Of a stretch of DNA of 64,000 bases, positions 7,960 through 60,555 are shown one piece after another. Within the stretch, counting starts at the first letter, position 1; the number at the start of each line of letters is the position of its first letter. The stretch is taken from assembly GCA_963829055.1 (NCBI GenBank), contig CAWHHI010000004.1:608001-672000 (forward strand). Reading direction: 5' to 3'. Origin of the DNA: an uncultured Gemmatimonadaceae bacterium. Lineage in GTDB: Bacteria; Gemmatimonadota; Gemmatimonadetes; Gemmatimonadales; Gemmatimonadaceae. The notes beneath the pieces were generated by a model that was given only the letters and a program-made list of their open reading frames with translations, had not been told where the DNA came from and ran no database searches. Made by a program: the position numbers and the translations under genes.

Positions 7960-7962
7960 GCG

Positions 7963-24411: not shown

Positions 24412-24450
24412 AAACGTGGGGCGTACTCGATCGAGTACACCCCACGTTTT
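24412..24450. terminator. Hairpin between convergent genes (probable bidirectional terminator)
   Basis: AAACGTGGGG-C-GTACTCGA/TCGAGTAC-A-CCCCACGTTTT near-perfect inverted repeat. Confidence 0.7.
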
Positions 24451-24512
24451 CGCATCCATCGAGCACAGTCGAGCACATTCCTCGGGACTCGGCTGACCCC
24501 GTCGGCGTTGTG

Positions 24513-26360: not shown

Positions 26361-26453
26361 GGTCACGACAAAGGCAAACGTGCTGAAAGGCATGGACGCA
26401 AAGCTCCGGGGCTGTAGCACGCAAACGCGTGCCATGCTGGCCGAGCCGCCGAC
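26361..26453 (+). ncRNA. c-di-GMP-I (GEMM) riboswitch, second copy
   Basis: GGTCACGACAAAGGCAAACGTGCT-GAAA-GGCATGGACGCAAAGCTCCGGGGCT..GCCGAGCCGCCGA; followed by RBS AGGAGA and ATG 26471. Confidence 0.88.
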
Positions 26454-26470
26454 ACTTCAGGAGACTCGAA

Positions 26471-33192: not shown

Positions 33193-33198
33193 CGACTG

Positions 33199-35463: not shown

Positions 35464-35923
35464 CAGAGCGGGCTCGATGCAATCCGGTGCTCGATCTGGC
35501 ACGAACTGGTACGTGAACTCGTGCGGGAAACAGTCGTGCCCCGACTATGCAAATCCGCGACCTCGGCTCTTCGTGGAGGTTCGGCGTCGAATCAGCTGCT
35601 GCTGGCCCGGAAACACTGCCCAGGCCGATAGATTGACGATTTATCGGGTGACTCGTCGGCCTCTGCGGCGAGTTCAACACATACTGTAGGCCTCGTACAA
35701 CATGACTGCACGTGAGACCGCGACGAATGCCGTCTCGGGAGGCTTGGGATCTGCGCTGCGCGTTGGCTGACACCACCATGCGGATAGCCATTCAATGGTG
35801 GGGGTGCGTGGCCCATTTGCTGCTTGAGCCCTGGACGTCCCGGCACCTGTCCGGGTGCGGCGCGCTCCGTTCGACCGGAGTCGCGCCGTTGAGATGCTGT
35901 GCTCTCCCGTCAACATTTCTGTG

Positions 35924-37117: not shown

Positions 37118-37207
37118 ACGGCGTATGCTCCAGGCAATCCAGGCGCCGTTGAATGTCGAGCGGCGACGTTGCGCACTACTCTACGAACTACTCTCGGTGA
37201 AGCCTAC

Positions 37208-39443: not shown

Positions 39444-39565
39444 ACCGTCGACGCCGGAGCATGCGGCGAGATGTGTGAGATCGGGCGCCGCGCGATCGCG
39501 CGGCGCCCCATCACCCGACCACCGCGCCTAACGAGCGCAGTGACGCGCGTCGGCGCACGGTCCGT

Positions 39566-40774: not shown

Positions 40775-40913
40775 CGTGCGTGCCGCCCGTTGCGGCGCAA
40801 AGGTTGCGACCTCCCGGGGACGCCGTCGTAAAGATATGATGCGCTGTCACAGCGCGTCCCGGACTGGGACTCGTGGCAAGGCCAGCGCCGCCGAATAACA
40901 TTCACCTCACTGC

Positions 40914-42684: not shown

Positions 42685-43593
42685 ATGTTCGATGTCTCCG
42701 TCATCATTGCATCGGTGGAGTCGTCACGATCGATCAAGGCATGTCTGGATTCGGTGCGTGCGGCGCTGCTGGGGACTCGCGCCGAAGTGCTGGTGGTCGA
42801 TGCGTCTCGCGACACGAGCGCGGACATTGCGGAGCGAGAGCTCGGGAGCGCGGTCGTTATACGCTGCGCGCCGGGAACGCTCACCCCGAGCTCTGGGCGG
42901 CTGGGATCGTTCGTTCGACTGGCCGTGTGATTGCTCTGACCACAGGGCACTTCGCGGTCGAGCGGACCTGGATGTCGAGTCTGACGTCCGCGTTGGAAGG
43001 AGGGACACATGGGCGCCGCCGGTCGAATCGATCTCGGCAATGAGACGTCGGTCACCGACTGGGCAGTGTTCTACCTGCGATACTCCGAGTTTTTGCACGA
43101 GCCCGAGCGAATTGAGTGCGGGGTGCCGGGAATTCCCGCCGACAACGCTGCTTACGATGGTGAGGCGATTCGACGATTCGTGATGACTTCCGACGACGGT
43201 TTCTGGGAAGTGGAATTTCATCGCCAGTTTCATGCGGCTGGCGGCTCACTCGCGATGGTGCAGGGTGCGACCGCGCTCGTACGGGCGATCGTTTCCGTTC
43301 TCTGACGATCGCCGGCCATCGCTACCACCACGGGCGCCACTCTGGCGCGTGGCGCGTCTCGCGAAAGGTCCGCTCGTCCAGCCATGTCGTCGCAGCATTT
43401 CCGCTCGTTCCGTTCGCCCTGGCCGCCGCGTACGTGGCGCCGCGTGCGGTCCACCGCCCGTGCACCGGAGTCGATTTCTGCGTGCGTTGCCGCTGTTCCT
43501 CGTGCTTGCATTCTGCTGGGCGGTCGGTGAAGCGGTCGGCGCCGTTGTCCGGTGCCCCGCGTCTCGCGTCGACCTTCTCCCGTGCCAGCCTGA
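42685..43593 (+). CDS. GT2-like glycosyltransferase (paralog 1 of 3); frameshifted
   Basis: VSVIIAS, EVLVVD, IALTTGH, DWAVFYLRYSEF, ADNAAY, GFWE, WAVGEAVG. Confidence 0.7.
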
Positions 43594-43595
43594 CC

Positions 43596-44569
43596 ATGTC
43601 TTCTCCCAGCCGACTGGATAGCGACGTGCCCCCTCTGCCGTGAAGCGTGGACCGCGCCGTGGATCCGCACCGACCGTGTCGGTCGTGGTTGCGTCCAATC
43701 GCGACAAGACACTCCTGCACGCCTGCCTCGGGTCGTTGCTCGGTCAGTGTCAGCGAATGAACGCCGAGTTGCTGGTCGCTCGTGCTGGTGCCCCGTCGAC
43801 GTCGCAGCGCTCGCGAAGACATACCCATCGGTTCGGTTCGTGACCGCGCCTGTCGACGCCTCGATTCCGCAGCTGCGCGCTATCGGAATGGCTCAGGCGT
43901 CCGGCGACGTGGTTGCGCTCACCGAGGATCACTGCATCGCCGACGAGAACTGGGTCGAGGCACTGACGCTGAGCGCGAGCGGCGACGCCGACGTGGTCGG
44001 CGGCGGAATGGACAACGCGCGTCGGTCGCGAGCCGTCGACTGGGCGGCGTACTTCGCGGAGTACGGCTTCTTCTCGCCCGAGCGCCCGGAGCGTGCCGAA
44101 GGTCCGCCGCTGCTCACGGGCGCCAACGTTGCGTACAAGCGTCACGTCATTGCCGACGTCATCGGGTGGGCGCAGGATGGCGAGTGGGAGAACGTCGCGC
44201 ATACGCGTCTCGTGGCGCGCGGCAGCATGCTTCGTTTCGCGCGGACCGCCGCGATCTATCAGAATCAGACCTACAGCGTCGCTGCGTTCTGCGCGGATCG
44301 CTACGAGCATGGGCGTGACTACGCCCGAAAACGGCTCGTCGAGGATCCAGAACGCCAGTCGCTGGTTTCTGCTGGCGGCGAGTCCGCTGCTGCCGGCGCT
44401 CCTCACCTGGCGCGTCGCGCGCGCCTCGGCACGTTCCCGCTGGGGCACGTTTCTCCGCGCGCTCCCGGCGACGGTGCTTTTCCTGACGGCATGGTCGGTC
44501 GGCGAGGCCGTCGGATATCTGCGCGGACCGTCGGATGGCTCCGCGCCGAAGCCGGCAGGCGATGACTGA
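43596..44569 (+). CDS. GT2 glycosyltransferase (paralog 2 of 3); frameshifted
   Basis: VSVVVAS, IPQLRAIG, VALTEDHC, DWAAYFAEY, TGANVAY, WSVGEAVG. Confidence 0.8.
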
Positions 44570-45457
44570 ACCATCGCTGACGGTCGTCGTGCCGTCGGTC
44601 AACGGCCTCGGCGACCTGATGGACTGTCTTGCCGCCCTCTCGAAGCAGCGAAGCGACGTCGATCTCGAGGTGCTCGTCGCCGACCGATGCGGCGAGCCGC
44701 TTCGCGCTGAGGTGCGTCGATCGTACCCGTGGGTGCGCATGCTGGAAGCGCCGGCGGGGACGACGATTCCCGATCTTCGTGCGCTCGCGTTTCGCCAGGC
44801 GACAGCGCGGTCGGTTGCGGTCATCGAGGATCACGTGATCGTGCCGCCCGGATGGGCGCGGGCACTCCTCGATGCACAGGCCGGTGGCGACATCGTCGTC
44901 GGCGGGGCGATCGAGAACGCCGCGGTGGATCGCGTCGTCGACTGGGCGGCGTTTCTGTGCGAGTACAGTCACTGCATATCCCCGCTGCCCGAAGGGCCTG
45001 CCGACTGGTTGACCGGAAACAACGTCGTCTATCCGCGCGAGTTGCTCGGGCGCTACGAGGAAGTCCTTGGACGGGGACAGTGGGAGAATCGACTGCACGA
45101 CGCGATGCGTCGTGACGGCGTCTCGCTGGTCTGCCGACCGCAGATCGCCGTGGGCCACAAGAAGCACTACACCGTGGGGGAGTATCTGTCGCAGCGATAT
45201 CTGTACGCGCGGTCGTACGCCGGGGCGCGGGTTGCCGACGCGTCGCTCGGAAGCGGCTGGGCTATGGTGCCGCCGCGCTGGCGCTCCCGCCGTTGCTCAT
45301 GTTTCGCACGGTGTCGCGCGTCGTGGCAAAGCGCCGCCACCGAGCGGAGCTGGTGCGGTCGCTGCCGTTGCTCGCTGTGTTCGTCGTGTCGTGGGCGTTC
45401 GGCGAGATGGTCGGCTACGTCGCCGGCCCCGGCGATTCGCTGGCCAAGGTCTGCTGA
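44562..45457 (+). CDS. GT2 glycosyltransferase (paralog 3 of 3)
   Basis: LTVVVPS, IPDLRA, VIEDH, DWAAFLCEY, TGNNVVY, WAFGEMVG; one frameshift near 45255. Confidence 0.8.
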
Positions 45458-45668
45458 GATGGCTCTGATGCCTTACACGGGTGACGTGGTGGTCGCGTTG
45501 ACGACGCCGGGGTCGGTGGCGAACATGGACGAAGCGGAGCACGATTTCTGTCCGGTCATCAGCGAGTTCGACACCGACGCACGGCAGCGCTTCGGCGCGC
45601 CGCATCGGTGGGCGCGTTCGTCAGCGCTCACCGCGCTGGCCGGCGCGCCGGCGTTCGTCTAGCGCGCG

Positions 45669-46852
45669 ATGCGCATCGGCGTCGATGCGACGTGCTGGGC
45701 AAACGGTCGCGGTTACGGGCGCTTCGCTCGTGAGCTGCTTCGCGCCATGGTCAGTCGAGGGTGCGTCGCACGAGTTCGTGTGCTTCGTCGACGACCGCGC
45801 GGCGCGTTGCTTCGATCTCACCGGCGCCGGTGTGCGCATGGTCGTCGTGCCGCAGTCGGCGTCGCCGACGACCGCGGCGAGCGCCACCGGCAGTCGTTCG
45901 GTCGGCGACATGTGGCGAATGACGCGAGCGGTCGCGCGCGAGGAGCTCGACGTGTTTTTCTCGCCGTCGGTCTACACGTATTTCCCGCTGCCGCCATCGC
46001 TCGCCGCGGTGATCACGTTTCACGACGCGATCGCCGATCGCTTTCCCGAGCTCACGCTGCCGTCGCTCGCGCGCGCGACTCTTCTGGCGCATGAAGGTGC
46101 AGATGGCGCTGGCGCAGTCACGCATCGTGCTCACGGTGTCGGACTACGCGGCGTCACAGGTGAGCCAAGACGTTAGGCGTCGACCGCGAGCGCATTCGCG
46201 TGGCGGTGGAAGCGGCGGCGTCGGTCTACACGCCGAGCGAGTCGAGCGCGAGGACATTGTCACGGCGGCGCGCGCGTGCCGGGGTGCCCGACGGTCGGCG
46301 CTGGTTCACGTACGTGGGCGGCTTCAACCCGCACAAGCACGTCGACGCGATCGTGCGTGCGCACGCGACGCTCGTGCGCGACGTCGCCGATCCGCCGACT
46401 GCTCGTGCTCGTCGGCGCGCTCGACGACGATCCGTTCTTCGGCTCGCAGCAGCGCATCCGCGACGAGATCGCGCGGTGCGGCACGGGCGACCACGTTCGG
46501 TGGGCCGGCTACGTGCCGGACGACGAGCTGCGCCACCTGCTGTCGGGCGCGCTCGCGCTGGTCCTGCCGTCGGAATCGGAAGGGTTCGGGCTGCCCGCGG
46601 TCGAGGCCGCGGCGTGCGGCATTCCCGTCATCGCCACGACGCGAGAGCCCGCTCCCGCAGCTGCTCGACGGGCGGCGGCATCTTCGTCGCGCCCGGCGAC
46701 GAGGCGGCGTTAGGCGCCGCGATGCGGCGCTCGCGACCGACGAGCCGCACCGCGCGCGCTCGCCGCGGGCGCGCTGGCGCGCGGCGCGCGCGCTGAGCTG
46801 GACGTCGAGCGCGCGGCGGCGCTCGACGCGCTCGACGGAGGCGGCCGCGTGA
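45669..46852 (+). CDS. Glycosyltransferase family 4; frameshifted
   Basis: MRIGVDATCW..RGYGRF, YVGGFNPHK, SESEGFGLPAVEAAACG.PVI. Confidence 0.85.
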
Positions 46853-48126
46853 CCGGCGCGCTCCGCTTCTGCATGTTCTCGACGTTCTACCCGCCGTACA
46901 GCTACGGCGGCGACGGCATCACGCTCCAGCGGCTCTGTCGCGCGCTCGTGCGAGCCGGCCACGAGGTGACCGTCGTGCACGACGCCGACGCGTACCGTCG
47001 TTAGGCTACCCGCAGCCCGACGGCGGCCGCCGCCGACGACGGCGTCGATGTCGTGACGCTGCGCAGCTCGCTCGGGGTCCTGTCGGTCCTCCTGACGCTA
47101 CCAGTTCGGGCGTCCGGTGGTGCACGGCGCGGAAATCGAGGCGCTGCTCGCCGCGCGACAGCTTCGACGTCGTGCACTTTCACAACGTGTCGCTCGTCGG
47201 CGGTCCCGGACTGTTCGCGTCTCGCCCGCGGCGTCCGCGACCGTCTATACGGCGCACGAGCACTGGCTCGTCTGCCCCACGCACGTGCTGTGGCGCCATC
47301 GTCGCGAGCGCTGCACGGGCCGCGAGTGCTTCCGGTGCTCGCTGCACTACGGACGTCCGCCGCAGCTCTGGCGAAGCACGGGGCTGCTCGAGCGATCGCT
47401 CGACGACGTCGACACGTTCATCGCGCTCAGCGAGTTCAGTCGCGACAAGCATCGCGAGTTCGGATTCCCGCGCGACATGGAAGTGCTGCCGCCGATCGTG
47501 TTCGACGCGGATGCGGACACGATCGACGCGCCTGCGGTGAGCCCGCATCCGCGCCCGTACTTCTTCTACGCCGGCCGACTCGAGCGCATCAAGGGGCTCG
47601 ACGACGTGCGTGCCGCTGTTCCGCGATGCCGACGCGCCGGCCGACTTGCTGATCGCCGGGGCTGGGTCGCACGAGCGCGCGCTTCGAGCGCTCGCCGGCG
47701 ACTCGCCGCGCATTCGCTTTCTCGGCCACGTCAGGCCGGAGCGGCTCGCGCCGCTCTATCGGCACGCGATCGCGCACATCGCGCCGTCGGTCTGCTTCGA
47801 GACGTTCGGCAACACGCTGGTCGAAGCGTTCCGCCAGAGCACCCCGGTCATCGCGCGACGCATCGGCCCGTTCCCGGAGATCGTCGCGCACGCCGGTGGC
47901 GGTGAGCTGTTCGACGACGCCGACGACCTTCGCACGGCGCTCGACGCGCTTCGCGTCGGACCGAGCGACTATCGCGACCGGCTCGGCGCCGCTGGACGGC
48001 GCGCGTACGAGCCGACGTGGTCGGAGGAAGCGATCGTTCCGCGATATCTCGAGATCGTCGAGCGGACCATTGCGCGCCGGCGTTCGCCGGCCACGCTCGG
48101 CCGCGCCGGCGGTCGCGGTCACGTAG
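46849..48126 (+). CDS. Glycosyltransferase family 4; frameshifted
   Basis: FSTFYPPYSYGG, HFHNVSL, HEHWLVCP, YAGRLERIKG, PSVCFETFG..LVEAF. Confidence 0.85.
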
Positions 48127-48133
48127 GCCTGAC

Positions 48134-48885
48134 GTGCGCGCGATCCTCACGTATCACTCGATCGACGAATCGGGATCCGTGATCTCGATCTCCGAGAGCG
48201 TATTTCGCGGTCACGTCACGTGGCTCGCGCGGAGCGCCGTGCGCGTCGTCTCGCTCGATACGCTCATGCGATATGCCGAGCGACGCGAACGCGGTTGCGC
48301 TGACGTTCGACGACGGGTTCGTCAACTTCGGCGACGTCGCCGCACCGCTGCTCGCCGATCACGGGATGCCGTCGACGCTGTTCGTCGTGTCGACGCCGCC
48401 GGAAAGACGAACCGGTGGCCAGGGCGCGCCGACCGCGGCGTTCCGGAGCTGCCGCTGCTCGAACTGGGACGCGCTCGGTCGTCTCGGCGCCCAGGGCGTC
48501 GAGATCGGTGCGCACACGCGCACGCACGTGAACGTCGCGCGCCTAACGAATGCGGCATCTCCGGACGAGATCGTTGGCGGCGCCGAGCGCATCAGGACGG
48601 AGCTCGGATATGACGCCGGCGGCGTTCGCGTATCCGTACGGCGCCGTGAGCAACGCGGCCGTCGGAATCGTCGCGTCACGATTCGCGTGGGGTTGTACGA
48701 CCGACATGCGGTGCGGTGTCGGCGAACGAGGCGCGCGCGCTCCTGCCGCGCATCGACATGTTCTATCTCCGCGAGCCCGGGCAACTCGAACGATGGGGAA
48801 CGGCCAGATTCCGGTATCATCTGAGGCTGCGCGCCGGCGCGCGACTCGTGCGGCGGCGTCTTCCTCGCTGACGGGGGACCGATGA
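48134..48885 (+). CDS. Polysaccharide deacetylase; frameshifted
   Basis: ILTYHSID, ALTFDDGF, EIGAHTRTH, FAYPYG. Confidence 0.85.
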
Positions 48886-49998
48886 ACACGACGACGCCGT
48901 TCATGTCGGTCATCGTGCCCGTCTACCAGGGCGCGCGCGTGCTGCCACGTTGCCTCAGCGCGCTGCGCGCGAGCGACATGCCGCGAGGGATCGTGGGAGC
49001 TCATCATCGTCGATGACGCGAGCACCGACGCGACCGCGCTCATTGCGGCCGAGTTCGCGGACGCCGTCGTGCGTCTCCCGGACCGGCCGCGCGGGCCCGC
49101 CTACGCGCGCAACCGCGGCGTCGAGGTGGCGCGCGGCGAGATCGTGGTGTTCGTCGACGCCGACGTGTGCGTCCACACCGACACGCTCCGGACGCTTCAC
49201 CTCCGTGTTCACGAACGAGCCGGATGTGAGCGCCGTGTTCGGCGCCTACGACACGCAGCCGGAAGCGCCGCAGCTCGTGTCGCAGTACCGCAACCTGCTC
49301 CACCACTTCGTCCACTCGCAGAGTGCCGGAGAGGCGGAGACGTTCTGGGGTGGGTGCGGCGCAATTCGTCGCGAGGTGTTCCTCGAGGCCGGCCGCTACG
49401 ACGAATGGTCCTACCCGCGTCCGCAGATCGAGGACGTCGAGCTCGGGCACCGCGTCCGCGCGCTCGGACACCGCATCCTGCTGCGGCCCGAAATCCAGTG
49501 CACGCACCTCAAACGCTGGACGCTGCGCGGCTGTCGTGACCGGCGACTTCCGCGATCGCGGCGTTCCCTGGACGCGCATGCTGATCCAGCAGGGGCTCGC
49601 GACGAAGTCGCGCACGCTCAACCTGCGCACGGTCGAGAAGCTGAACACGGTGCTCGTCTGGGTCGTCGATGCTGGCGCTGCTCGGCGCGGCGATCTGGCG
49701 CATCGTGGATGCCGGCGATCTGGGCCGGCGTCGCGTTCTGCGATCGTGATCGATTCTCAACCGCGCGCTCTACGGCTTCTTCATCCGCACGCGCGGCGTT
49801 CTGTTCGCGCTCGCGGTCGTGCCGCTGCACACGCTGTACTACCTCAACAACGGGTTCGCGGTGCTGTACGGGTGGGCGCTCCATCACCTGTTCGGAGAGC
49901 CGATGCCCGACGCGACGACGCAGGCGTATGCGGAGGTCGGCGTCGACATGTGGCCACCGGTGCCATCGAAGAAGCCCGAGCGGGAGACGCAGCGGTGA
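48882..49998 (+). CDS. Glycosyltransferase family 2; frameshifted
   Basis: SVIVPVY, IIVDDASTD, GPAYARN, VFVDADV, FWGGCGAIRR, IEDVELG. Confidence 0.88.
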
Positions 49999-51030
49999 GC
50001 GCCGCGATCGCATGGCGGTGCACGGCTCGTTAGGCGTCGCCTGCCCGCGGTGTCGGGGCGATCTCGCGCGCGGGCCGACGCGTTCGACTGTGAGCGCTGC
50101 GACGCGCACTTTCCCGTGGTGCTGGGCATTCGCCGATTTCCGTCTCGATCCCGATCCCGTGGATCGGCCTCGAGGACGATCGCGAGAAGGCCCGCCGCCT
50201 CGAGGAGCGGTTCGCGCGGTGCGTCGCTCGAGGCGATGGTGCGGACGTACTGGTCGATGACGCCTGGCACGCCGGCGGCGCAGGCCGTCGCGCTTCGTGC
50301 ATCACGTCATGCACGGCGTACGCGCGATCGCGCGAGTGGGTCGAGCGTCTCGAGCCGCCCGACGGTCGACCGTCGGGGCCGTGGCTCGATGTCGGCACGG
50401 GGACAGGCGACCTGGCGTCGTGCGGTCGCGGAGCACGGCATTCGTGCCGTCGGCGATCGACATCGCCATGCGATGGCTGGTCGTCGCGCGCCGCCGCGCG
50501 GAGCTCGCCGGCGTCACACGTCGATCTCATCTGCTGCAACGCCGAGCACTTGCCATTCGCCGATCGGCACGTTCGCGCGCGTCGTCTCGGTCGGAACGAT
50601 CGAGCATTGCGCGACGCCGAGCGGGCGCTCGGCGAAGTCGACGACGCGTGCTGGCGCGCGGCGGCGACGTCAGGCTTCGGACGGTGAATCGCTTCACCAT
50701 GCTGACCGAGCCGCACGTCGGGGTGTGGGGCGTCGGCTTCGTGCCGCGTCGGATGGCCGATCGGTACGTGCGCTGGCGCGGCGGTCAGGGCTACGCGCAC
50801 CACCGTCCACTGTCGTCGCGCGAGCTGCGACGCGGGCATGCGACGCGCGGGATTCAGCGCCGTGCGCGTCGAGCGCGGCGTCGCTGCTGCGCGACCGAGC
50901 GCGCACGGCTAGGCGGTGCTGCAGTGGGCGCGTCGGCGCGTACGAGCGGCGCGACGGCATTCCCGCTCGTCGAGCGCGCGCTTCGCGGCGTCGGCGCCGC
51001 TGCTCGAAGCGCAGTGGGGTCGCGGCATGA
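49995..51030 (+). CDS. Class I SAM-dependent methyltransferase with an N-terminal Cys-pair (Trm112-like) segment; frameshifted
   Basis: CPRC..CERC..FPVVLGI, WLDVGTGTG, ID...RWLVVA, CCNAEHLPF, EPHVGVWG. Confidence 0.7.
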
Positions 51031-51808
51031 CTGCGCCACGCATCTTCACGCCGGAGTACTACGCGCGCATGCGCGAGCTCGAGGCTGGCAGCTGGTGGAA
51101 CGCCGCGATGCGCGACATCGCGGCAATGCTGCTCAACGACGTTCAGCTGCCTGCAGCGGCACGATACTCGACGTCGGATGCGGGTCGGGCCAGACGCTCG
51201 CGTGGTTCAGTCAGCGGTTCGGCGCATGGCGGACACTCGGCTGCGACATCTCGCCGGACGCGGTGACGGCCGCCGCGACGGCTCGGGGTTCGAGATCACG
51301 CGGGCATCGGCGCTCGCGCTCCCGTATCCGTCCGGCACCGCGGACGTCGTCATCTCGCTCGACGTGCTGCAGCACGTCCCACTTGGCGGCGGGGACGTGA
51401 CCGCGCTTCGCGAGATGCGCCGCGTCCTCAAGCCAGGTGGGTGGCTGTTCGTTCGGACGAACGCACAGAGCTTTCCGGCGACCGCGGACGATCACGAGTA
51501 CCAGTTCCATCGCTACGAGCCGCGCGAGCTACAGCGACAAGCTGGCGGCAGTCGGCTTCGAGGTGCGTCGTCTGAGTCGCGTGAACGCTCTGCTCGGGTC
51601 TGGCGGAGATTCCGCGTGAGCTGCGCGCGCGGCGCGTGCAGGCGGCGGACTATCATGGCATTCTCGCGACGAGCAACGGTCATGCGTCGTGGACGTCTGC
51701 GGCGAAGCGGGCGTGGGTTCGTCTCGAGGGGCGGCGGTTCGGCGCGGCGTTAGGCTTCCGGCCGGCCGCACCATTGTCGCCTTGTGCCAGGCGCCCGACA
51801 GTCGATGA
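51027..51808 (+). CDS. Class I SAM-dependent methyltransferase; frameshifted
   Basis: ILDVGCGSG, LPYP..TAD...LDVLQH, EMRRVLKPGG, HRY. Confidence 0.82.
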
Positions 51809-53101
51809 ATCGCACTTGCCCACGTGCGACCGGACGGAGATCCGAGCAGCGTGACCGCCATCGCGAGGTCTCGCGACAACGACGGCCCGGCTGCTGTCGC
51901 GCACCCGTTGGCGCGACGCCTCGCGGTCGTCGGGCCTGAAGAGGAGCTGTTGCTGCTCACCGCCGGCGGCGTCGCCAATGACGATGCCATTCGCGTCGCG
52001 CGGTGGCGACATCAACTGGGCGCGGTTCCTCGGACTCGCACAGCTCGAGCGTGCGGTGCCGGTGATTTTCCCTCGTCTGCCGACCCTGGTTGGTGACGCC
52101 CTCCCGACGACCGTGCTCGATCAGATGCGCCGAGCTCGCGCTCGTCTCGGATTTCGCGATGCTGCACCTCGAGACGCGGCTGCGTGAGTCGTTGAGCGTG
52201 CTGCACGGCGCCGGCGTCCGCGTGATGCTGCTCAAAGGTGCCGCGCTGGCGCACACAGTGTATTCCGGCGTTCGACAGCGGCCGATGTCCGACCTCGACC
52301 TGCTGGTCGATGCCAGCAATGCGCGCCTCGCTCGCCGCGTGATGCTGTCCGCGGGATGGCGCGAGATCGTCGGTGGCATACCAGACAGCGTGTACGATCG
52401 CCATCACCACCTGCCTCCGCTTCACGACACGAGGTCGCCGGACCTGCAGCTCGAGATTCACACGGCGCTGTTTCCGGAGCGGCAGCCGTTCGCGTTCGAC
52501 GCCCGCGACCTCTGGGCCTCTGCTCACCCGTTAGGCAAGGGATTCCCCGAGGCATACACGCCGGATGCGATTCACTCGCTTCTCCACGCCAACCTCCACT
52601 TCCTGTGGTCGCACCAGGGACGGTTCGGCGTCTGGCGAACCATGCGCGACGTCGATGCGCTTACTCGCAGGCGACGCCATCGACTGGGACGCATTCGTCA
52701 GAACCGCGAAAGCCAGTCGTGGCGCGACGGCGTGTTACTGGACGTTTCGAATCGCGACACTGACTGCCGGTATTGCAATTCCCGACGTCGGTGATGGCGG
52801 CTCTCCGGCCCCCGCGAAGTCGCTACGTCCTTCAGGCGATCGAGCGACACTTCCTGAAGAACCTCTTCCCGGTCGAATTCGCGTGTCCTTCCGTCGCTCT
52901 GGATCACGCGCTGTGGGAGCTGGCGGTGATGCCCGGTTGGAGCGGACACGGCGAGGTCCGACCGTGGGACGAGGAACCCGACTTCGTGGTGCCGGGCGAG
53001 GCAGTCGGAAGCCGTCGCGCATTCTTCCGAAGAGGGAGCGAGTGCGTCGGCTGCTCGCCTCTCCTGGATACATCCGCACGCTGCTGCGCTCTCGTAGCTG
53101 A
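51805..53101 (+). CDS. Nucleotidyltransferase (NTP_transf_5-like family seen in some lasso clusters); frameshifted
   Basis: VMLLKGAAL...Y....RPMSDLDLLV, LEIH, D.IH.LLH..LH; start overlaps the upstream methyltransferase stop (ATGA). Confidence 0.82.
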
Positions 53102-53296
53102 TTTCCGGGATCGAGAGTTCGTCGCACTCTGGCTCTCGCGGCACAACGCCACAACTATGGCGTATCGTCAACGGTTGTGTCGCGAGTGCGCAACTCTCCC
53201 GGAGAGACGTCGTGGCTGCTAGCGTAACTGCTGACGCGAAGTCTTCCCACGCGACGAGTTAGGCCTCTGCGCGACCGTCGACCGCAATGCCAGTCT

Positions 53297-53314
53297 GCGG
53301 CACGCACGCTGCTA
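53297..53314 (+). promoter_or_regulatory. Candidate sigma-54 (-24/-12) promoter
   Basis: CGGCACGCACGCTGCTA = GG-N10-GC with GGCACG, about 200 bp upstream of the cyclase-like gene. Confidence 0.35.
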
Positions 53315-53515
53315 TTACCGAGCCCGCGATGGGGCAGTCGCAACTCGCGTACTGAAGCTCCCCAATAGTCATAGTCGAGGCGGCCCGTCGGTCTGGTTCG
53401 TTCAGCACGCTCGTTCGGATCTGACGGTCAGCCGGCGCTGCTCACCAGCAGCGCTCCGTCTTTGTCTGCGCGACGCGGTGGCAAGGTGCACGCGTGATTC
53501 TAGCGTCGAGCGTCA

Positions 53516-55458
53516 ATGAGTGGATTTGTCGCGATCGTTGATCCGAGCAAGCGGCTCCTCGCGGAGGCGAGCGTCGCGCGCATGCTCGGCGCGCTGGCGC
53601 CGCGCGGTGATCGCTCAGAGGTCAAGCGCGACGGCGAGTGCGTGCTTGCTGTCACTCGATTCGAGTGGGAGCTCGCCGATGGGTTTTCCGGACCGACTCT
53701 TCTCGTCACCGACGGCGACCTGAGCGTGGTCGCGGACGCGAGCGTCTACTACCGCGATGACCTCCTGCGATCACTCCACGGGGCGGGCGTGCGCCCAGCC
53801 GGTTCATCGGTCGCCCACCTCATCGCCGCGGCCTATCGTGCGTGGGGCAGTGATTGCACGAAGTATCTCGAAGGTGATTACTCGTTCGTTATCTACGACC
53901 ACAAGCAGCGTCGAACGTTCGCGGCGCGCGACTTCCTGGGTCGTCGACCGCTCTACTTCGTCGAGATCGGCGACGCGCTGTTGGTGTCGTCGTCCGTGAG
54001 CGCGATCGTGGCGCACCCGGCCTGTTCGACGGAGCTCGACGACGTTGCGCTCGCCGAGTTCGTTTGTGTGAGTCTCGCCGGGGCCTCGACGCACACCATA
54101 TCGCGCGGTGAGCGCGGTCCCGCCGGCCACGTGGCTCGATCCGCGACGCGCTGGGGCACGCCCGGACGCACCAGTATTGGCGTCTCGACCTTAGCGACAG
54201 TGCAGACGCCGAGTCGTTCGATGCGGCGAGTGAAGAGCTCGGCGACCTGTTGGGTAACGCGATCGTCGAACGACGTGCGCTGGCCGGCCCCACGACGATC
54301 TGGCTGAGCGGCGGGTATGACTCGCCGGTGATGTTCGGCGTCGGCAATGCAGCACTCGACCGTCTTGGTCTCGGTCGACTTGGCCCCGGTGTCGTTCAGC
54401 TACCCTGTCGGCGATGCGGGGCGAGAGGACGAGCTGATCGAGGAGATCACGAATTTCTGGGCAACACAGCCGACGTGGCTGTCGATCGATGACGTTCCGC
54501 TGCTCGCCGAACGCAGCGCGAGACGCTGCCCGTGCCGACGTTCCGTTCCAGCACGCCTTCGAGAACTGGCTTCGTGCGTTGTTAGGCGCCACCGCACGCG
54601 CGGGCTCGCGCGTCGCGCTCTATGGCGACGGTGGCGACCAGCTGTTCGCGGTGTCGACGGTGTTTCTCCGCGATCTGTTCGGTTCGCTGAAATGGCGCGA
54701 GTTGCGGCGTGAGTGGCGGGCGTTCGGCGGCGGCGGGGCGCGGGCGCTGTGGAACTATGTGGCTCGACCGGTTGTTGCCGAGCGAGTGCGGGCGGTGCGA
54801 GGGAAGAGCGGGCCACAAACGTCGTTTCCGGATTGGGTCAGCCGTGAGTTCGTGGCGACGACATTCGTTGGAGCGGCTGGAGGCCGAAGCGGAAGCGGCG
54901 CTCGAAATGACGAAGGAGGACAGGCGGCCACCGAGACGCGCCGGTCGCTTGGCAACCCAATGGTCACGCGCGTGTCGCGGCTTTCTCGGGTCTCGGCACT
55001 GGAGCACGGAGTGGAGCTCCGGGCGCCCTTGTTCGATCGGCGCATCGTGCGAGTTCGCGCTGCGGCGTCCTCGTCGGGAACGCGCATCAGCGGGCGCTGT
55101 CAAACACTTGCTTCGACGCTGCGCGCGCGACGTCTTGCCGCCAAGTGTGCTGGCGCCCGCGTAAGGCAAAGACCGGAGTGCTCACGGACTATTTCGCGCG
55201 ATCTTTTCGCGCTGATCCGAACGGGCTAGTGAGTGACGTTCTGACGCGATCCATTCTTGCGCAGCGCGGCATTGTTGATGGTGCGGCAATGCAACAGGCG
55301 TGGCATGAATACAAGACTCGCGGGGCCGGCGCGGGTGGATATTTGTTCTTGCTTTTCAGATTGAACTTTGGCTTCGTGCCCGTGTTCCTAACGCGGTAGT
55401 TACACCCGTAAATGCAGATCAATGGCTCAGAGTGCCAGCGGCAGGGTTCGTGCAGTAA
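53516..55458 (+). CDS. Asparagine-synthetase-like ATP-dependent lasso cyclase candidate (C protein); frameshifted
   Basis: Starts MSGFVAI (no catalytic Cys2); ARDFLGRRPLY, PP-loop WLSGGYDS, YGDGGDQLF, LRAPLFDRR, KHLLR, R..K, ELWLR; immediately upstream of a lasso-type precursor. Confidence 0.75.
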
Positions 55459-55569
55459 CCACTGTCGGTGTGGTTCACCACGTCCGGCAGGCCGCGGGCT
55501 TGCACCTACGGCCACACCGGTCGTAATTTGCCGGGAATTCCCGGAAAAACACCTCTCTTGGGAGGGTTC

Positions 55570-55689
55570 ATGTACCAGGCACCCAAACTCGAGCGTTTGG
55601 GCTCGTTCCGCGAGATCACTCTCGGCGGTGGCGAATTCAATCCCGGCGACGGAACGAACGCGTTTCATCGCTACTCGCCGAACGGCTAA
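55570..55689 (+). CDS. Lasso peptide precursor (A), 39 aa: MYQAPKLERLGSFREITL|GGGEFNPGDGTNAFHRYSPNG
   Basis: RBS GGAGGG at 55561; leader motif YxxPxLxxxGxxxxxT with Thr(-2); core Gly1 with Asp9; aromatic/bulky residues F14, H15, R16, Y17 in the tail. Confidence 0.88.
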   Translation: MYQAPKLERLGSFREITLGGGEFNPGDGTNAFHRYSPNG

Positions 55690-55697
55690 CGCTCTAG

Positions 55698-55737
55698 CGG
55701 CGGGGGAGGCTGAAAGCCTCCCCCGCCGGCCTTTTTT
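55698..55737 (+). terminator. Rho-independent terminator after the precursor gene
   Basis: CGGCGGGGGAGGCT-GAA-AGCCTCCCCCGCCG 14-bp stem followed by GCC-TTTTTT. Confidence 0.85.
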
Positions 55738-55787
55738 CCCACCTCGTCGCGCCCTAACAATTTCTGCGTTGCCCAGGCGTCTCTCCC

Positions 55788-56753
55788 TTGCGAGACCACG
55801 CCATATTCGGCGGCTGTCTCCGATCGGAGATTCCGCTCCCCGAACTCCCGCCCATTGACGCCGCCGAGCCTGACTGGTTCTTCCATCGCGCGTCGACGCT
55901 CGTCCCGGCGTTGCAGTACCTCGGTGACGACCCGTCGACGCCACCCTGCGGGTTCGGTGCAGCACAATCGCGTGACGGCTTTCGGTTCGATTTCGACGAC
56001 ACCGGAATCTTCGACATCACCAGCGGCGGCCGCGACATCGCCTGGACTGCCCGGCAGGCATCCGCCCTCGAGCTAGTGCGCGCCGATCTCGTTAGGCGGC
56101 GTGTTCTCGGTGGCGCTTCATCTGCAGGGCCTTCTCTGTCTGCACGGCAGCGCCGTCGCGGTCGCCGACTACGGCTGTCGGGTTCCTCGCCAACAAAGGG
56201 GCGGGCAAGTCGACGCTCGCGACCGCCCTCTGCGCTGCAGGCGGAACGCTGATCACCGACGACATGCTTCCAGTCGACCCGAAGGCGCCTGTGATGGCGT
56301 GGCCATCAATGCCCGCCGTGCGTCTTCTTCACGACTCGGCGTCGCACCTTCGTTACGCCAGCGGGTCGACGCATCCGGTGACGAACAAATACCACGTGAA
56401 CGAGCTTCCGTCGCACCAGGTCGAACGGCGTCGTCTTCGCGTTGGCGCCATCTACGAGCTCGCGCCGGTGCCTGCGGGTGCTGGGGTGCCGCCCGTGGAA
56501 CGTATTCGGGTGACGGGCACTGCGGCCGTTGGCACGCTGCTGCGTCATCATCGCGCGGGAACGCCATCGGCAAGGCGGAGACGATGAACCTGTTCCTGCG
56601 CGCCAGCGACATCGTTCGCGCGGTGCCCGTGTACCGTCTCCAGGTCGCGCGGGATTTCGATCGCTTGCCCGACGTCGTGGATCAGATCCGGCAGTGGCAT
56701 TCCGCAGCGCATCTCTGTCGACGCCGCTGGATCGCACACGACGGTCACCGTGA
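55788..56753 (+). CDS. HPr-kinase-like P-loop kinase (lasso tailoring-kinase type); frameshifted
   Basis: HAIFGGCLRSEIPLPEL N-terminus, LCLHGSAV, Walker A NKGAGKST, LITDD, VPVYRL...RDF..L. Confidence 0.78.
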
Positions 56754-57809
56754 CCGCGACTGCCAGTACCGTCGCCTTCGCTGCCTCCGCCTCGACCAGC
56801 ACCAATGCCGTCGTACTCGGGGGCTGACGAAGTCGTTCACGAAGCAACGCGGCTGGCGCGCCGTGGTCAGCCGGCAAAGCGCGCGAGTCGGTGCGGGCGC
56901 TGTCGGACGTCTCCGTGCGAGATACGCGTCGGGCGAGTTCTTCGGACTGCTCGGAGAGAACGGCGCCGGGAAGACGACGCTGTTCAAGATGCTCGCGACG
57001 CTGGTCACTCCCGACGCCGGTACTGCCATCGGTCAGCGGCTTCGACATGCTCAAGTCGCCGAATCGCGTGCGTGAGGTCGCTTGCCCCAGTCATCGCCGA
57101 CGAGCGCAGTCTGCACTGGCGCCTCTCCGCGCGGGAGAACATGCGCCTCTTCGCCTCGCTGCACGACCTCCGCGGCGCGGAGGCGACCCGCCGGATCGAC
57201 GAGCTGCTGAGCCTCGTCAATCTCGTCGAGGCCGCGGATCGCCTGGTGAGTGGCTTTTCGTCCGGAATGAAGCAGCGACTGCTGGTCGCCAGAACGTTGT
57301 TCGCGCGCCCGAGCGTCCTGTTGCTCGATGAGCCCACTCGAAGTCTGGATCCGATCTCGGCCCGTTCGTTTCGACGGTTCCTCCGCGAGGACGTTGCGCT
57401 GGCGCAGGGCTGCACGGTGCTGCTCGCGACGCATAACGCGGAAGAGGCATTCGAGCTCTGCGATCGTGTCGGGGTTCTGCATCGCGGCAATCTCGTCGCC
57501 GTCGGACAGACCTCGGAGCTCGCCCGCGAGGTCGGCGAGGACCGGTTCGCGCTCTGGATTCGCCCGGCTGATCAATCCGCGATCGATGCGCTCGTGGCCC
57601 GCGGCGTGATCAGGGACGCGAAAGCGTTCGGCGAGGCCGAGGAAGGGTGGTCGCGCATCGAGTGCGATTTGCGCGGTGGACTGGACGGTGCCGCCGAGGC
57701 GATCGCGTTTCTCGCAAGGCGGGAGTGAGCGTCGCGACGGTGTGAGCCCGTGAAGCTGTCCCTCGCGGATCTTCTCGAGCGCGTGCTGGCGCGCCACGTC
57801 AATGCATAA
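56750..57809 (+). CDS. ABC transporter ATP-binding protein (ABC-2 exporter type); frameshifted
   Basis: GENGAGKTT, FSSGMKQRL, LLLDEPT, LATH. Confidence 0.9.
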
Positions 57810-58610
57810 AGTCTGGGCGCTCATTCGCTCGAACTGGCTCGCCGCGACCAGCTACAAGCTGGGCTTCGTCTTCTCGTTCGGGTCGCTCGATTCTGAGCGT
57901 GTGCCGATCTTCTTCATCACGCGGCGCGCTCCAGACGACCATGGCGGACGTGATCCGCGGACAGGGCGATCAGTACTTCGCGTTCCTGGTCGTCGGCCTG
58001 ATCGCGTTCAACGTCGTTTCGTCGACGGTCTACGCGTTGCCCGGCGGACTGCAGACCGCGACATCGACCGGGACGCTCGAGGCGCTGCTCGCCACGCCGA
58101 CGTCGGTCACGGCGTTGCTCCCGGTCTGTCCGGCTACGAGGTGCTGCTCTCGGTGCTGCGCGAGCTGCGTCATGCTCGTCGCCGCCGGCTGTCTCGGAGC
58201 GCGTGTCGCGTGGCTGCAACTCGGCGCGAGCTTGCCGATCGTCGCGCTCATCGTGCTCGCGCACCTGCCGATCGCCATCATCACCGCCGGCGATGGTGCT
58301 CGCGTTCCGGACCCGCGGGCCACTGCCGCAGCTCGTGCTGCTGGCGTCGACGTTTCTCGGAGGCGTGTACTACCCGACGACGGTGACGGATTCCGGGCCG
58401 GATCAAGGTCGATTTCCGCGTTCCTCCCGCTGACGTACGGCCTCACGGCGCTGCGCGCGGTGCTGCTGGAAGGGAGACTCGATCGCCACCGTCTGGCGCG
58501 AGCTCTCGATTCTGCTCGCGTTCACGGTGGTCGCGCTCGTCGCCAGCGCCATCGGCGTTCCGGGCCGCGCTCCGCTACGCGCGCAGGTCGGGAACCTGGC
58601 GCAGTACTGA
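57802..58610 (+). CDS. ABC-2 type permease; frameshifted
   Basis: YFAFLVVG, GTLEALLATP, FLGGVYYP, LPLTYGL..LR, GNLAQY end. Confidence 0.85.
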
Positions 58611-58626
58611 GCCGGTGCCGGCCGGC

Positions 58627-60555
58627 CTAACGCGGCGGCTCACGTCGACGACTCTCGGCGGTCCGACGCCGCGGCCGGGATCGAAGAGCGGCTTCTCCAC
58701 CTCGGCGAACGGCGCGCGCACCAGCATGATGCGATCGAGCATGACGCCGTCGTGGTGCATCCAGACGTTGAGCACGTGCGGTCCCGGCTCCACGATGTTC
58801 AGCACCGCGAGCGTGGTGTCCGTCATCTGGAATTGAACATCCCACTCGAACGCGTCACGCGCCCAGCCCCACTGCGCCTACCGGAAACCGACCGAGTCGA
58901 TCGGCGAGCCGCACCTCTTCGTTGTCGAGCCCGACGTGAATGCTGCGACTGGCGCTATCGGGCGCCTGCTCCGCGAGCGTACACGACGTAGGTTCCGGGC
59001 TGGTCGAATCCAGATGTTGTATCGGAGCTCTGGCGCGTTCGCTCGAAACTCGCCGGCTCGCACGATCGTGCCGCGCTCTGGGACCGGCCACGACGTAGCC
59101 GTCGCCGGAGAATCCTGCGAGGTCTCGCGCGACGGTCCAGCTCTGCCCGTCGCGCGGCGTGTTGCTCACGAAGTGCTCGGCCTCGATGGTCGACGCGGCC
59201 ACCGTCCTCGACGAACTGTCCCTCGGCGGCAATGACGTTGACCCGCACACCTCGCGGGCCGGCTCGCCGACGTACTCGTGCGTCACCGTGAGCTCGAACG
59301 CGTGAGTCGGCGACGGTCAGTCGCAACGAACGATGCCGTCGCGCCGGTGTCCGACTGTCAGCCGAACGCGCGGCCCGTCCACCTGCCGCCATCGGTACCG
59401 GAGCGCCTGGCCCGCGTGCCGCATAGCTCGCCTCCCGTCGAGCGTGACCGTGTCGCCAACGACGTGCGTCGACGTGAATCCCGGGTGCGCGATGGGCGTC
59501 TCGTTCGCGTCGGCGCGCTCGAGCAAGCCGACGCGCGTTGCCGTGGTAGTACTTCGCCATCACGCTGTCCGGCAGCGGCCACTTCTCGGTGAACGGAAGG
59601 AACATGTCCAGCCGCTGGCGATACGACTTGAGCCAGCGGAACGTGTTCTCCATGTAGTCGGTGCCGAACATGACCTGGTCCTGATATCGATCGAAGAACG
59701 ACAGCTCCGCCGAGTCGAGCGTCGCGAACTCGACCTTCGGCTGATGGGCGCCACCCTCCGTGTACATGTTCGGGTACTTCTCGAGCATCTCTTCGAGGTA
59801 GGTGCGATCGCCGGCGGCGCCCGCCCAGTGCGCCGCGATCAGCTGGAGGCGCGGGTGCTTGCGCAGCACGCGCTCGCGCTGGAGCATGAGCGATCTCCCA
59901 GCGCACGGTCTCGGTTTGCCCCGTTAGGCGCCTGATGCTCGCCCTTGTACGCGCCGCCCAGGTGCACGAGCACCGGGACGCCCAGCCGCTCGGCGGTACT
60001 CCACAGCGGGTCGTACGCCGGGCGTGTCGAACGGGACGAGCGTTCCCGCTGTGTCGCGCGTCCAGTAGTTGACCGTTACCGGCGCCCGCCTGGTCCTTGA
60101 TCTTGAGGCCCGACGGCGCCGCGGCGCACGGCGTCCTCGAGCAGGCCGGCGACCCAGGTCGGGTAGTCGGCCGCTCGCTTCCGACGAAGACGTCGTTCGC
60201 GTCGTCGATCGGCACGTTGGCGAACAGCTTGAACCGAGCGGTGTCGGGGTACAGCGCGATCCGCTCGGCTCACGCGATCGCCGAAAATGCCATTTTCGAG
60301 CGAATTGTCCGGCGCCTTGAAGTCGACGACGAGCTCCACGTGCATCTCGTTCATCGTGCGCGTGAGCTCGTCGAAGTTCGGGCGCTTTCCCGGCCACGTC
60401 TCGACGCCGCCGAGGTGCGTGTGAATGTCGATGATGGAGAATCGCGGCGGCGGTGCGTGCGGCGGTGCGGCATCGCGGCATCCGCCGAACACGATGCGAG
60501 CAGGCAAGCCGCCGCCGTCACGGCCGGCCTAACGCGGACCGTCCGGCGCGCTCAT
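58627..60555 (-). CDS. Lipoprotein amidohydrolase (amidohydro_2-like) fused to PKD-like and carbohydrate-binding-like C-terminal domains; frameshifted
   Basis: LLASC lipobox; IIDIHTH, GLKI, VPVLVH, IAAHW, VMFGTD, YYHGNARRL; then VTLDG..YRWRQVDGP, IEAEHF..GFSGDGYV, LNVWMHHDG..LDRI. Confidence 0.65.

What the first reader, a model, noticed from the sequence alone, without database searches (positions are those of the whole stretch)
51805..58610. Lasso-peptide-type RiPP system embedded in, and joined to, an exopolysaccharide operon
Seen: same-strand nucleotidyltransferase - Cys-less Asn-synthetase-like enzyme - 39-aa peptide with a canonical lasso leader - HPr-kinase-like kinase - ABC-2 ATPase and permease. 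The nucleotidyltransferase start overlaps the stop of the last gene of the GT/deacetylase/methyltransferase operon (42685-51808), so the RiPP tailoring gene is part of the sugar operon. Known: cyclase plus kinase plus nucleotidyltransferase occur in paeninodin/pseudomycoidin-type lasso clusters, where the peptide is phosphorylated and, for pseudomycoidin, glycosylated. Inference: this may make a phospho-glycosylated lasso peptide, or use a lasso peptide as a carrier or anchor for a glycan built by the neighbouring GTs, linking RiPP and EPS biosynthesis.
Basis: partly seen in the sequence, partly recalled or inferred. Interest (0 to 1): 0.9.

Follow-up and report, generated by a model that had tools for sequence, protein, structure and literature searches.

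The report
Split lasso-peptide pathway in sugar operon
A Gemmatimonadaceae genome carries, at the end of a sugar-polymer operon, genes that likely make a knotted 21-residue peptide decorated with phosphate and sugar; the cutting enzyme it likely uses is encoded far away among ribosomal genes, and this is an unstudied variant of a known peptide type.

Summary
The genes are real. Nucleotidyltransferase N, Cys-less cyclase C, a 39-aa precursor, an HprK-type kinase K and an ABC-2 pair are intact and syntenic in relatives. The window's frameshifts look like read errors (52 frameshifts, 0 stops). C does not group with AsnB (AU p=0.011). The core fits the lasso rule (Gly1-Asp9; Asp9 in 18 of 18 cores).

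The leader-processing pair B1/B2 is missing here and sits in the rpsG-fusA operon on another contig.

The polysaccharide link is not obligatory. Of 107 family cassettes, 49 sit in the str operon with no sugar genes nearby. Co-location with capsule loci is already published for Bacilli (PMC13381572).

New points: the split pathway; N stays in the sugar operon even without C; and the peptides keep His-Arg-Tyr while 4 of 18 lack any Ser/Thr, hinting at tyrosine phosphorylation. This scan noted similar cassettes before on other DNA. Verdict: new variant of a known kind; the glycan-carrier idea is unproven.

The parts
48903..49998 (+). GT2 glycosyltransferase of the sugar operon; N lies directly after its orthologue in G003 and G004
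   Evidence: Coordinates via L211; PF00535 on the cluster representative
49995..51030 (+). SAM methyltransferase 1 (sugar operon)
   Evidence: Methyltransf_11 on the L211 orthologue; coordinates
51027..51808 (+). SAM methyltransferase 2, last full gene before N
51805..51854 (+). Bridge mini-ORF (15 codons in L211). Its start overlaps the MT2 stop and its stop overlaps the N start; two extra bases in the window assembly
   Evidence: 16 of 16 loci have a 14-16-codon ORF with both overlaps and unconserved sequence
51851..53101 (+). N: NTP_transf_5 nucleotidyltransferase-like protein (PsmN/BsfN-like), about 415 aa, LLKGA and DxD motifs; 5 frameshifts in the assembly
   Evidence: PF14907, E 2e-24; motifs; fold search gave only weak nucleotidyltransferase matches, best E 0.01
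53516..55458 (+). C: Cys-less asparagine-synthetase-like macrolactam synthetase, about 645 aa, SGGxDS motif; 9 frameshifts, no in-frame stop
   Evidence: trees
55459..55569 (+). Conserved non-coding stretch before the precursor with a palindrome near 55527-55546 and a purine-rich RBS; shared with the C15 paralogue
   Evidence: Alignment; the exact pattern occurs only here and on C15; no Rfam match
55570..55689 (+). A: 39-aa precursor, 18-aa leader (YxxPxL..G..T) plus 21-aa core GGGEFNPGDGTNAFHRYSPNG; predicted ring Gly1-Asp9
   Evidence: NF033521, 32.3 bits > 19; identical peptide in L211; Asp9 and His15-Arg16-Tyr17 in 18 of 18 distinct clade cores
55698..55738 (+). 14-bp G+C-rich hairpin plus T run after the precursor (terminator-like; would raise precursor mRNA above K)
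   Evidence: 5 sites found against a shuffle mean of 4.4, so the count alone is not significant; hairpin conserved in the alignment
55788..56753 (+). K: HprK-type peptide kinase, about 320 aa, His / GxGKST / Asp-Asp; 6 frameshifts
   Evidence: Motifs; TIGR04352 E 9e-9, below cut-off; HprK chains E 3e-4; model pLDDT 87, PEPCK/HprK fold
56750..57809 (+). ABC-2 type ATPase
   Evidence: PF00005, best NCBIfam drrA; coordinates
57802..58610 (+). ABC-2 permease
   Evidence: PF01061 on the cluster representative; nodJ weak; coordinates

Best explanation
The module is a paeninodin/pseudomycoidin-type lasso-peptide pathway that is split across the genome and likely makes an exported, phosphorylated and sugar-capped 21-residue lasso peptide together with the neighbouring polysaccharide genes' expression. 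Step 1 (inferred): B1 and B2, encoded on contig C19 between rpsG and fusA, bind and cut the 18-aa leader in trans. Step 2 (inferred): K phosphorylates the linear precursor near its C-terminus. The likeliest site is core residue 17 (Tyr after the invariant Arg), with Ser18 the alternative in this strain. Step 3 (inferred from family and ring rule): C closes Gly1 onto Asp9 and traps the tail. Step 4 (inferred from PsmN): N, translated in step with the sugar operon, adds one or two hexoses to the phosphate, presumably from nucleotide-sugar pools. Step 5 (inferred): the ABC-2 pair exports the product. Shown here: gene identity, order, motifs, conservation, the split layout and the coupling ORF. 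No product, activity or expression is shown. The glycosyltransferases are probably not required.
For: Leader over the NCBIfam cut-off. Asp9 in 18 of 18 distinct cores while ring positions 4-8 vary. C lies in a Cys-less cassette clade; AsnB is one side of a branch with support 100, and forcing C with AsnB is rejected at p-AU 0.011. G000 has one B2 over cut-off (NF033537, 67 > 33 bits) next to a PqqD, with no frameshift in either, although the kinase and precursor of that locus are deleted down to a remnant. G001, G002, G005 and G006 likewise have their single B2 away from C-A-K. Eight genomes of three other genera with B-less cassettes also have one distant B2. Close metagenome loci L221 and L222 still hold B1-B2-N-C-A-K together. 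B1 plus precursor complex prediction: weak support, score 0.52 against best control 0.02, runs agree in at least 91% of contacts, partner pLDDT at least 53. The mark was reached by 116 of 157 solved and 2 of 215 mismatched pairs, but at 0.60 or under by only 18 solved and both mismatches; RRE-leader complexes are a textbook type, so the pass may reflect likeness. Precedent: PsmK phosphorylation and PsmN-dependent hexosylation (PMC6993621 passages); the bsf cluster has the same gene set (PMC10368454 passages). Residue 17: His-Arg-Tyr in 18 of 18 clade cores; 4 of 18 have no Ser/Thr though the adjacent kinases keep all motifs; sister lineages end His-Arg-Ser; 43 of 81 family precursors end Arg-Ser.
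Against: C scores 215-227 bits on NF033535, far under its cut-off of 525, and two AsnB controls score higher (252, 278) on that model, so the HMM alone does not identify it. The three outside lasso cyclases sit on long branches and do not group with this clade. Only 30 of 81 family precursors fit the simple ring rule. The window's core has no terminal Ser. His-Arg-Tyr could be conserved simply as steric plugs. PsmC works without B1/B2, so supply in trans may not be needed. N stays beside the GT2 gene in G003 and G004, which have no cassette-type C; this fits a sugar-pathway role for N equally well.
Confidence: 0.55

Rival explanations
1. The phospho-lasso peptide is a primer or anchor for a larger glycan: N caps the phosphate with a first sugar, and the operon's GT2/GT4, deacetylase and methyltransferases extend and decorate it, linking the peptide to the cell-surface polysaccharide.
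For: N is coupled to the operon by a bridge ORF in 16 of 16 loci. It follows the same GT2, directly or after two methyltransferases, in 6 of 7 genomes of the genus; G002's contig starts at N. In the family, 25 of 107 cassettes (13 genera) have two or more sugar genes within the fetched stretch, and the sugar/str label needs at least 6 changes on the C tree. A kinase-lasso cluster also lies among EPS genes on a Paracoccus plasmid and in Bacilli, where it is co-induced with an EPS gene (PMC13381572). A true GT glycosylates a lasso peptide in davasins (PMC11912497 abstract).
Against: 49 of 107 cassettes, 40 of them with N, sit in the str operon with no sugar genes. L221-L223 carry the same peptide type without the operon in the stretch held. 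The GT2 operon exists without lasso genes in 17 of 20 fetched loci. The permease is followed by opposite-strand genes, and C starts 414 nt after N. PsmN alone gives only 1-2 hexoses in E. coli.
Confidence: 0.2
2. The lasso peptide is made but stays unglycosylated, or even unphosphorylated. N has become a sugar-pathway enzyme, or serves the cyclase-less str-operon peptide, and the neighbourhood reflects repeated insertion into a variable genomic island.
For: N is kept next to GT2 in G003 and G004 without C-A-K. Four of 18 cores have no Ser/Thr. N's fold matches are weak and include FKRP, E about 0.3. Relatives keep a second kinase with a peptide ending in Ser at the str locus.
Against: K always directly follows A with intact motifs, including beside Ser/Thr-less cores. 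G000 lost the str-locus peptide and kinase yet keeps N. N orthologues travel with C-A-K outside sugar operons (L221-L223).
Confidence: 0.15
3. The module is decaying in this particular genome and makes nothing.
For: 5-10 frameshifts per gene as assembled. The partner locus on C19 has lost its precursor and most of its kinase.
Against: 52 frameshifts but 0 in-frame stops across 7 genes. Sugar genes are hit as hard as lasso genes. Against L211, 184 of 192 indels are single-base and 149 are extra bases in the window. Short-read contigs from other runs differ at several of the same places. The peptide is identical to L211's.
Confidence: 0.07
4. The 53516 protein is an ordinary polysaccharide amidotransferase (AsnB/TIGR03108 type) and the small ORF is incidental.
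For: Databases label its homologues asparagine synthase, and the window holds other AsnB-like EPS genes.
Against: No N-terminal Cys in 16 of 16 aligned members. About 157 bits on TIGR01536 against about 500 for true AsnB controls. Grouping with AsnB is rejected. A precursor follows C in 26 of 30 metagenome loci; the other four end inside or just after C.
Confidence: 0.03

Closest known systems
Pseudomycoidin cluster psmC-A-K-B1-B2-N-D of Bacillus pseudomycoides (PMC6993621; passages read)
   Same: C-A-K order, HprK-type kinase, NTP_transf-type N with DxD, ABC exporter, Asp ring.
   Different: Here B1/B2 are on another contig, N precedes C and is coupled to a glycosyltransferase operon, the exporter is a two-gene ABC-2 pair, and the core has no terminal Ser.
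Paeninodin-like and LPP clusters inside capsular-polysaccharide loci of Bacilli (PMC13381572; section 6 and passages read)
   Same: Kinase plus NTP-transferase RiPP genes embedded in polysaccharide loci; biological role unknown.
   Different: Different phylum (no 'Gemmatimonad' in the main text); no SipW-like peptidase in this module; split layout.
bsf cluster of Bradymonas sediminis (PMC10368454; abstract and passages read)
   Same: A, B1, B2, C, D, K, N in a Gram-negative bacterium; bordered by ribosomal protein genes; kinase acts on a non-terminal residue; B1 helps the kinase.
   Different: Contiguous cluster, Ile(-2) leader, Ser3 acceptor; this core has Gly at 1-3 and Thr(-2).
Davasins / IgtG glycosylated lasso peptides (PMC11912497; abstract only)
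   Same: A glycosyltransferase adding several sugars to a lasso peptide is precedent for the GT-extension rival.
   Different: Direct Ser glycosylation by a dedicated GT; similarity of IgtG to the operon's GTs was not tested.

Membership tests
Lasso peptides (class II) | Precursor with YxxPxL leader and Thr(-2) | tested here: met
   NF033521, 32.3 > 19 bits; Y2, P5 and T17 invariant in 22 aligned precursors
Lasso peptides (class II) | Small N-terminal core residue and Asp/Glu at position 7-9 | tested here: met
   Gly1 and Asp9; Asp9 in 18 of 18 cores found with a leader-only pattern; position 1 is Ala, Gly or Ser
Lasso peptides (class II) | Asn-synthetase-like macrolactam synthetase lacking the glutaminase Cys | tested here: met
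   MSG start, SGGYDS; not AsnB by tree and AU test. Caveat: under the NF033535 cut-off (215-227 vs 525)
Lasso peptides (class II) | RRE (B1) and transglutaminase-like leader peptidase (B2) | tested here: met
   Not in the module; present intact on G000:C19 38953-39714 (PF05402, PF13471, NF033537 over cut-off; Cys and His motifs). Action on this precursor is inferred; complex prediction weak
Lasso peptides (class II) | Threaded topology of the product | not testable with these tools
   Needs NMR or heat/carboxypeptidase tests
Paeninodin/pseudomycoidin-type phosphorylated lasso clusters | HprK-like kinase with His-Lys-Asp-Asp next to the precursor | tested here: met
   Motifs; fold; motif definition from PMC9266682 passages
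Paeninodin/pseudomycoidin-type phosphorylated lasso clusters | Conserved C-terminal Ser as phospho-acceptor | tested here: not met
   Window core ends Ser-Pro-Asn-Gly; 7 of 18 clade cores end in Ser and 4 of 18 have no Ser/Thr. Filed as a variant, not a member in the strict sense
Paeninodin/pseudomycoidin-type phosphorylated lasso clusters | PsmN-like NTP transferase with DxD | tested here: met
   PF14907 and RPMxDxD; PsmN itself was not aligned
Paeninodin/pseudomycoidin-type phosphorylated lasso clusters | Phosphate and hexose on the product | not testable with these tools
   Needs mass spectrometry
AsnB / TIGR03108 EPS amidotransferases | N-terminal catalytic Cys and score over TIGR01536 cut-off | tested here: not met
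   No Cys; 157 bits vs cut-off 267, controls about 500
LPP (linear polyphosphorylated peptides) | SipW-like peptidase and no cyclase | tested here: not met
   Module has a cyclase and no such peptidase among its genes; a weakly peptidase-like fusion exists at a separate locus on C16

The most novel reading that the evidence does not exclude
A lasso peptide phosphorylated on tyrosine by an HprK-type kinase, matured by a peptidase borrowed from the ribosomal str operon, and then used by the translationally coupled nucleotidyltransferase and glycosyltransferases as the starting point of a cell-surface glycan: a RiPP acting as primer or anchor of polysaccharide assembly.
Probability: 0.12. Interest if true: 0.88.

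Novelty: new variant of a known kind. Interest (0 to 1): 0.5.

Why it matters
The role of phosphorylated and phospho-glycosylated lasso peptides, and why their genes sit in capsule loci, is stated to be unknown (PMC13381572). This lineage offers natural experiments: the same cassette inside and outside a sugar operon, N kept in the operon with and without the cyclase, and peptides with and without Ser/Thr. If residue 17 is the acceptor, it would be a tyrosine-directed HprK-type RiPP kinase, which I did not find described in searches. Tyr phosphorylation of a RiPP is known, but by an unrelated PKc-type domain (PMC12639078 passages). The split layout also means cluster-mining tools would probably miss or misfile these pathways, whose kinase family matched 154 of 301 Gemmatimonadaceae genomes searched.

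Tried and rejected
Expression: no RNA holder was listed; this is no evidence either way. The four runs laid were DNA contigs only.

Promoter scan of 53000-58800 found no sigma-70-type site, so the N-C gap could not be shown to hold a promoter. Rfam: no match in 40000-64000.

NCBIfam NF033535 as a cyclase test was rejected as non-discriminating, because AsnB controls outscore the query. The PDB sequence search returned no lasso cyclase. A fold search of the N model gave no match at E ≤ 0.001; the wider library was not tried.

The pattern required Asp9 and His-Arg and ran across stops in three rows, so invariance is cited from the leader-only pattern.

A synonymous/non-synonymous codon count on the precursor was too small to use. 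The genome-contig scan returned only four genomes already held.

The paeninodin primary paper was not held, so its details come from reviews. No supplements were read; those of PMC13381572 may list Gemmatimonadota clusters. Literature searches found no paper on this lineage's clusters; PMC11316326 only notes lasso clusters in 29 marine Gemmatimonadota MAGs.

I first thought the operon-overlap claim was wrong, then that the ATG was N's own start; one search replaced both readings with the bridge ORF.

Full report
Setting. The window is G000:C4:608001-672000 of a 7.8-Mb genome, 86% complete. Its closest homologues are labelled Gemmatimonadaceae. Most of the window is a polysaccharide locus: GT2 and GT4 enzymes, deacetylases, a Wzy-like gene, a heparinase-like gene and AsnB-like amidotransferases. 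The stretch from about 41 kb onward is riddled with frameshifts in sugar and lasso genes alike.

The genes are there. Frameshift-aware alignment to intact relatives recovered N, C, K, the ATPase, the permease and two sugar-operon genes at 70-94% identity, with 52 frameshifts and no in-frame stop. A metagenome locus, L211, is 92% identical over 18 kb, has intact genes and encodes the same peptide; 184 of its 192 indels against the window are single bases. I read the breaks as assembly errors; this is inference, since the source reads were not available. Coordinates come from mapping L211 onto the window. Four genomes of the same genus carry C-A-K-ABC (G005's N lies on a second contig). Of 30 metagenome loci, all 15 that reach past N upstream through an adjacent methyltransferase show the sugar operon there, and L215 does too; L221-L223 do not.

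The peptide. The 39-aa ORF passes the lasso-leader HMM. With a leader-only pattern, 31 copies gave 18 distinct cores. All have Asp9 and His15-Arg16-Tyr17, positions 4-8 vary, and the tail after residue 17 varies in length and sequence. That is the pattern expected for a Gly1/Ala1-Asp9 macrolactam.

The cyclase. C lacks the glutaminase Cys and keeps SGGxDS. Its best NCBIfam model is the lasso cyclase NF033535, but it scores under the cut-off and AsnB controls score higher on it, so I used trees. In 97 rows, the 11 AsnB-type proteins form one side of a branch (support 100), and the window's C sits among cassette cyclases. In a 29-row subset, holding C and its two relatives with 8 AsnB rows is rejected at p-AU 0.011. 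The three outside lasso cyclases are long branches and give no positive grouping. The identification therefore rests on exclusion from AsnB plus constant linkage to a precursor.

The missing half. The module has no B1 or B2. G000 has one B2 over cut-off, beside a PqqD-type B1 and a second ABC-2 pair, between rpsG and fusA on C19. In G001, G002, G005 and G006 the matching locus reads B1-B2-A'-K', mostly with the ABC pair, and has no cyclase; contig ends cut it short in G002 and G005. In G000, A' and most of K' are gone while B1 and B2 are intact. L221 and L222 show the joined form B1-B2-N-C-A-K. Eight genomes of three other genera with B-less cassettes also have a single distant B2. I infer supply in trans. 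The complex prediction for B1 with the precursor gave weak support only: 0.52 against 0.02 for the best control, at least 91% contact agreement, partner pLDDT at least 53. At this level, 18 of 157 solved pairs and both passing mismatches of 215 reached the mark, and RRE-leader pairs may pass by likeness. Against necessity: pseudomycoidin forms without B proteins (PMC6993621, passages).

The join to the sugar operon. The ATG at 51805 overlaps the MT2 stop but is out of N's frame as assembled. In 16 of 16 loci examined, a start codon at that position opens an ORF of 14, 15 or 16 codons with unconserved sequence, whose stop overlaps N's start. Length change by whole codons points to selection for translational coupling, though these loci are close kin and not independent. 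Contigs of runs X3 and X4 list only one of the window's two extra bases, which would fuse the ATG to N directly. C begins 414 nt after N, so C-A-K may have its own transcript; no promoter could be shown. G003 and G004 keep N directly after the same GT2 but have no cassette-type cyclase match. So in this genus N belongs to the sugar operon more firmly than C-A-K does.

How general is the link? A kinase profile matched 154 of 301 family genomes. I gene-called 116 fetched stretches and kept 107 that hold the kinase. Left out were 7 continuation or kinase-free pieces and 2 where clustering found no K. Weak matches, contig-edge hits and unpublished genomes among the 150 listed matches were not fetched. 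Of the 107: 49 (18 genera) lie in the str operon with no sugar gene in the stretch, 25 (13 genera) have two or more sugar genes, 7 have one and 26 have none. A Pfam scan of 60 of the 95 unclassified neighbours moved one of the 26 to the sugar class. The sugar/str label needs at least 6 changes on the C tree. The operon's GT2 matched 112 of 301 genomes, and 17 of 20 fetched loci had no N or lasso gene. A Paracoccus plasmid has A-B1-B2-C-K-D among EPS genes. So the cassette is mobile and self-contained, with a recurring but non-obligatory preference for polysaccharide islands. Tallies include up to three unpublished genomes each; no other claim rests on them.

The kinase target. Family-wide, 65 of 81 distinct precursors end in Ser and 43 in Arg-Ser, as in paeninodin-type systems (PMC9266682, passages). 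In the window's clade the terminal Ser is not kept. Four of 18 cores contain no Ser or Thr, yet their adjacent kinases keep His, GxGKST and DD and are 69-90% identical to the others. Sister lineages G064, G102 and G115 end His-Arg-Ser with Ser at residue 17. The simplest reading is that residue 17 after Arg16 is the acceptor and has become Tyr. Against this: the three residues may be steric plugs, Ser18 is available in this strain, and LppK did not accept Tyr (PMC13381572, passages). I put Tyr17 at roughly even odds, conditional on phosphorylation. The kinase model (pLDDT 87) matches PEPCK and HprK structures. N's model has only weak nucleotidyltransferase matches.

Comparison with what is known. 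It works like psm (phosphate, then N-dependent hexose; PMC6993621) and has the gene set of bsf (PMC10368454, passages). Embedding in capsular-polysaccharide loci, co-induction with an EPS gene and an unknown role are reported for Bacilli (PMC13381572, section 6 and passages). It meets the lasso features I could test, and it fails the terminal-Ser feature of strict paeninodin-type clusters. Earlier notes of this scan describe kindred Gemmatimonadaceae cassettes in EPS loci, in the str operon and without cyclase. I saw them after forming my reading, and they are not independent support.

Verdict. A real feature and a new variant of a known kind, interest 0.5. What remains distinctive is the split pathway, the coupling of N to the sugar operon and the possible tyrosine acceptor. 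All three are directly testable by heterologous expression.

Noticed in passing
G000:C19 36610-39714 (L018): B1-B2-ABC-permease inserted between rpsG and fusA, with only a remnant of the kinase and no precursor left; relatives have B1-B2-A'-K'-ABC there.
   Followed up: yes
L091-L094, L096, L099 (G001-G006 str locus): Cyclase-less cassette with a 57-aa two-Cys precursor ending Gly-Arg-Ser and no acidic residue at core 7-9, in 6 of 6 relatives of the genus; a candidate linear phosphopeptide.
   Followed up: partly
G000:C15 17388-17501, minus strand (L017): Orphan paralogue of the precursor with the same upstream element and downstream hairpin but no Ser in its tail; G001, G002, G005 and G006 also have orphan copies.
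   Followed up: partly
G000:C16 202690-206776 (L019:7691-11777): Second RiPP-like unit after Wza/Wzc-like genes: NTP_transf_5 protein with a weak C-terminal signal-peptidase-I match, an unassigned P-loop protein, PqqD, radical SAM and a 58-aa peptide; resembles LPP systems plus a radical SAM.
   Followed up: partly
window 55459-55569: Non-coding stretch conserved before both precursor copies, with a near-perfect palindrome just upstream of the RBS; possible operator or RNA element; no Rfam match.
   Followed up: partly
L082-L190 (family census): Many family precursors are long; 65 of 81 have two or more Cys and only 30 of 81 fit the simple ring rule, so some cyclases may form non-standard rings.
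   Followed up: no
L233-L249: In 15 of 17 other-genus loci of this sugar operon, one or two small hydrophobic ORFs with no Pfam match follow the GT2 (after two methyltransferases in G066), where N sits in this genus.
   Followed up: no
L119, L125, L141, L158, L086 and related: A separate lineage has K-C-A cassettes next to sulfatase-family genes and a UDP-GlcNAc 2-epimerase, one with ATP sulfurylase/APS kinase nearby.
   Followed up: no
L193 (NZ_CP067230.1): Paracoccus plasmid with A-B1-B2-C-kinase-ABC between a sugar transferase/O-antigen ligase and a Wzc-like gene.
   Followed up: no
window 20056-28844: Large Big_2-repeat proteins and beta-helix-like repeat proteins sit inside the polysaccharide locus.
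   Followed up: no
window 1-9000 and 41000-64000: Frameshifts are patchy: dense here (including the methionine-synthase-like genes), nearly absent at 33000-40800 and in the C19 ribosomal genes; likely uneven polishing.
   Followed up: partly
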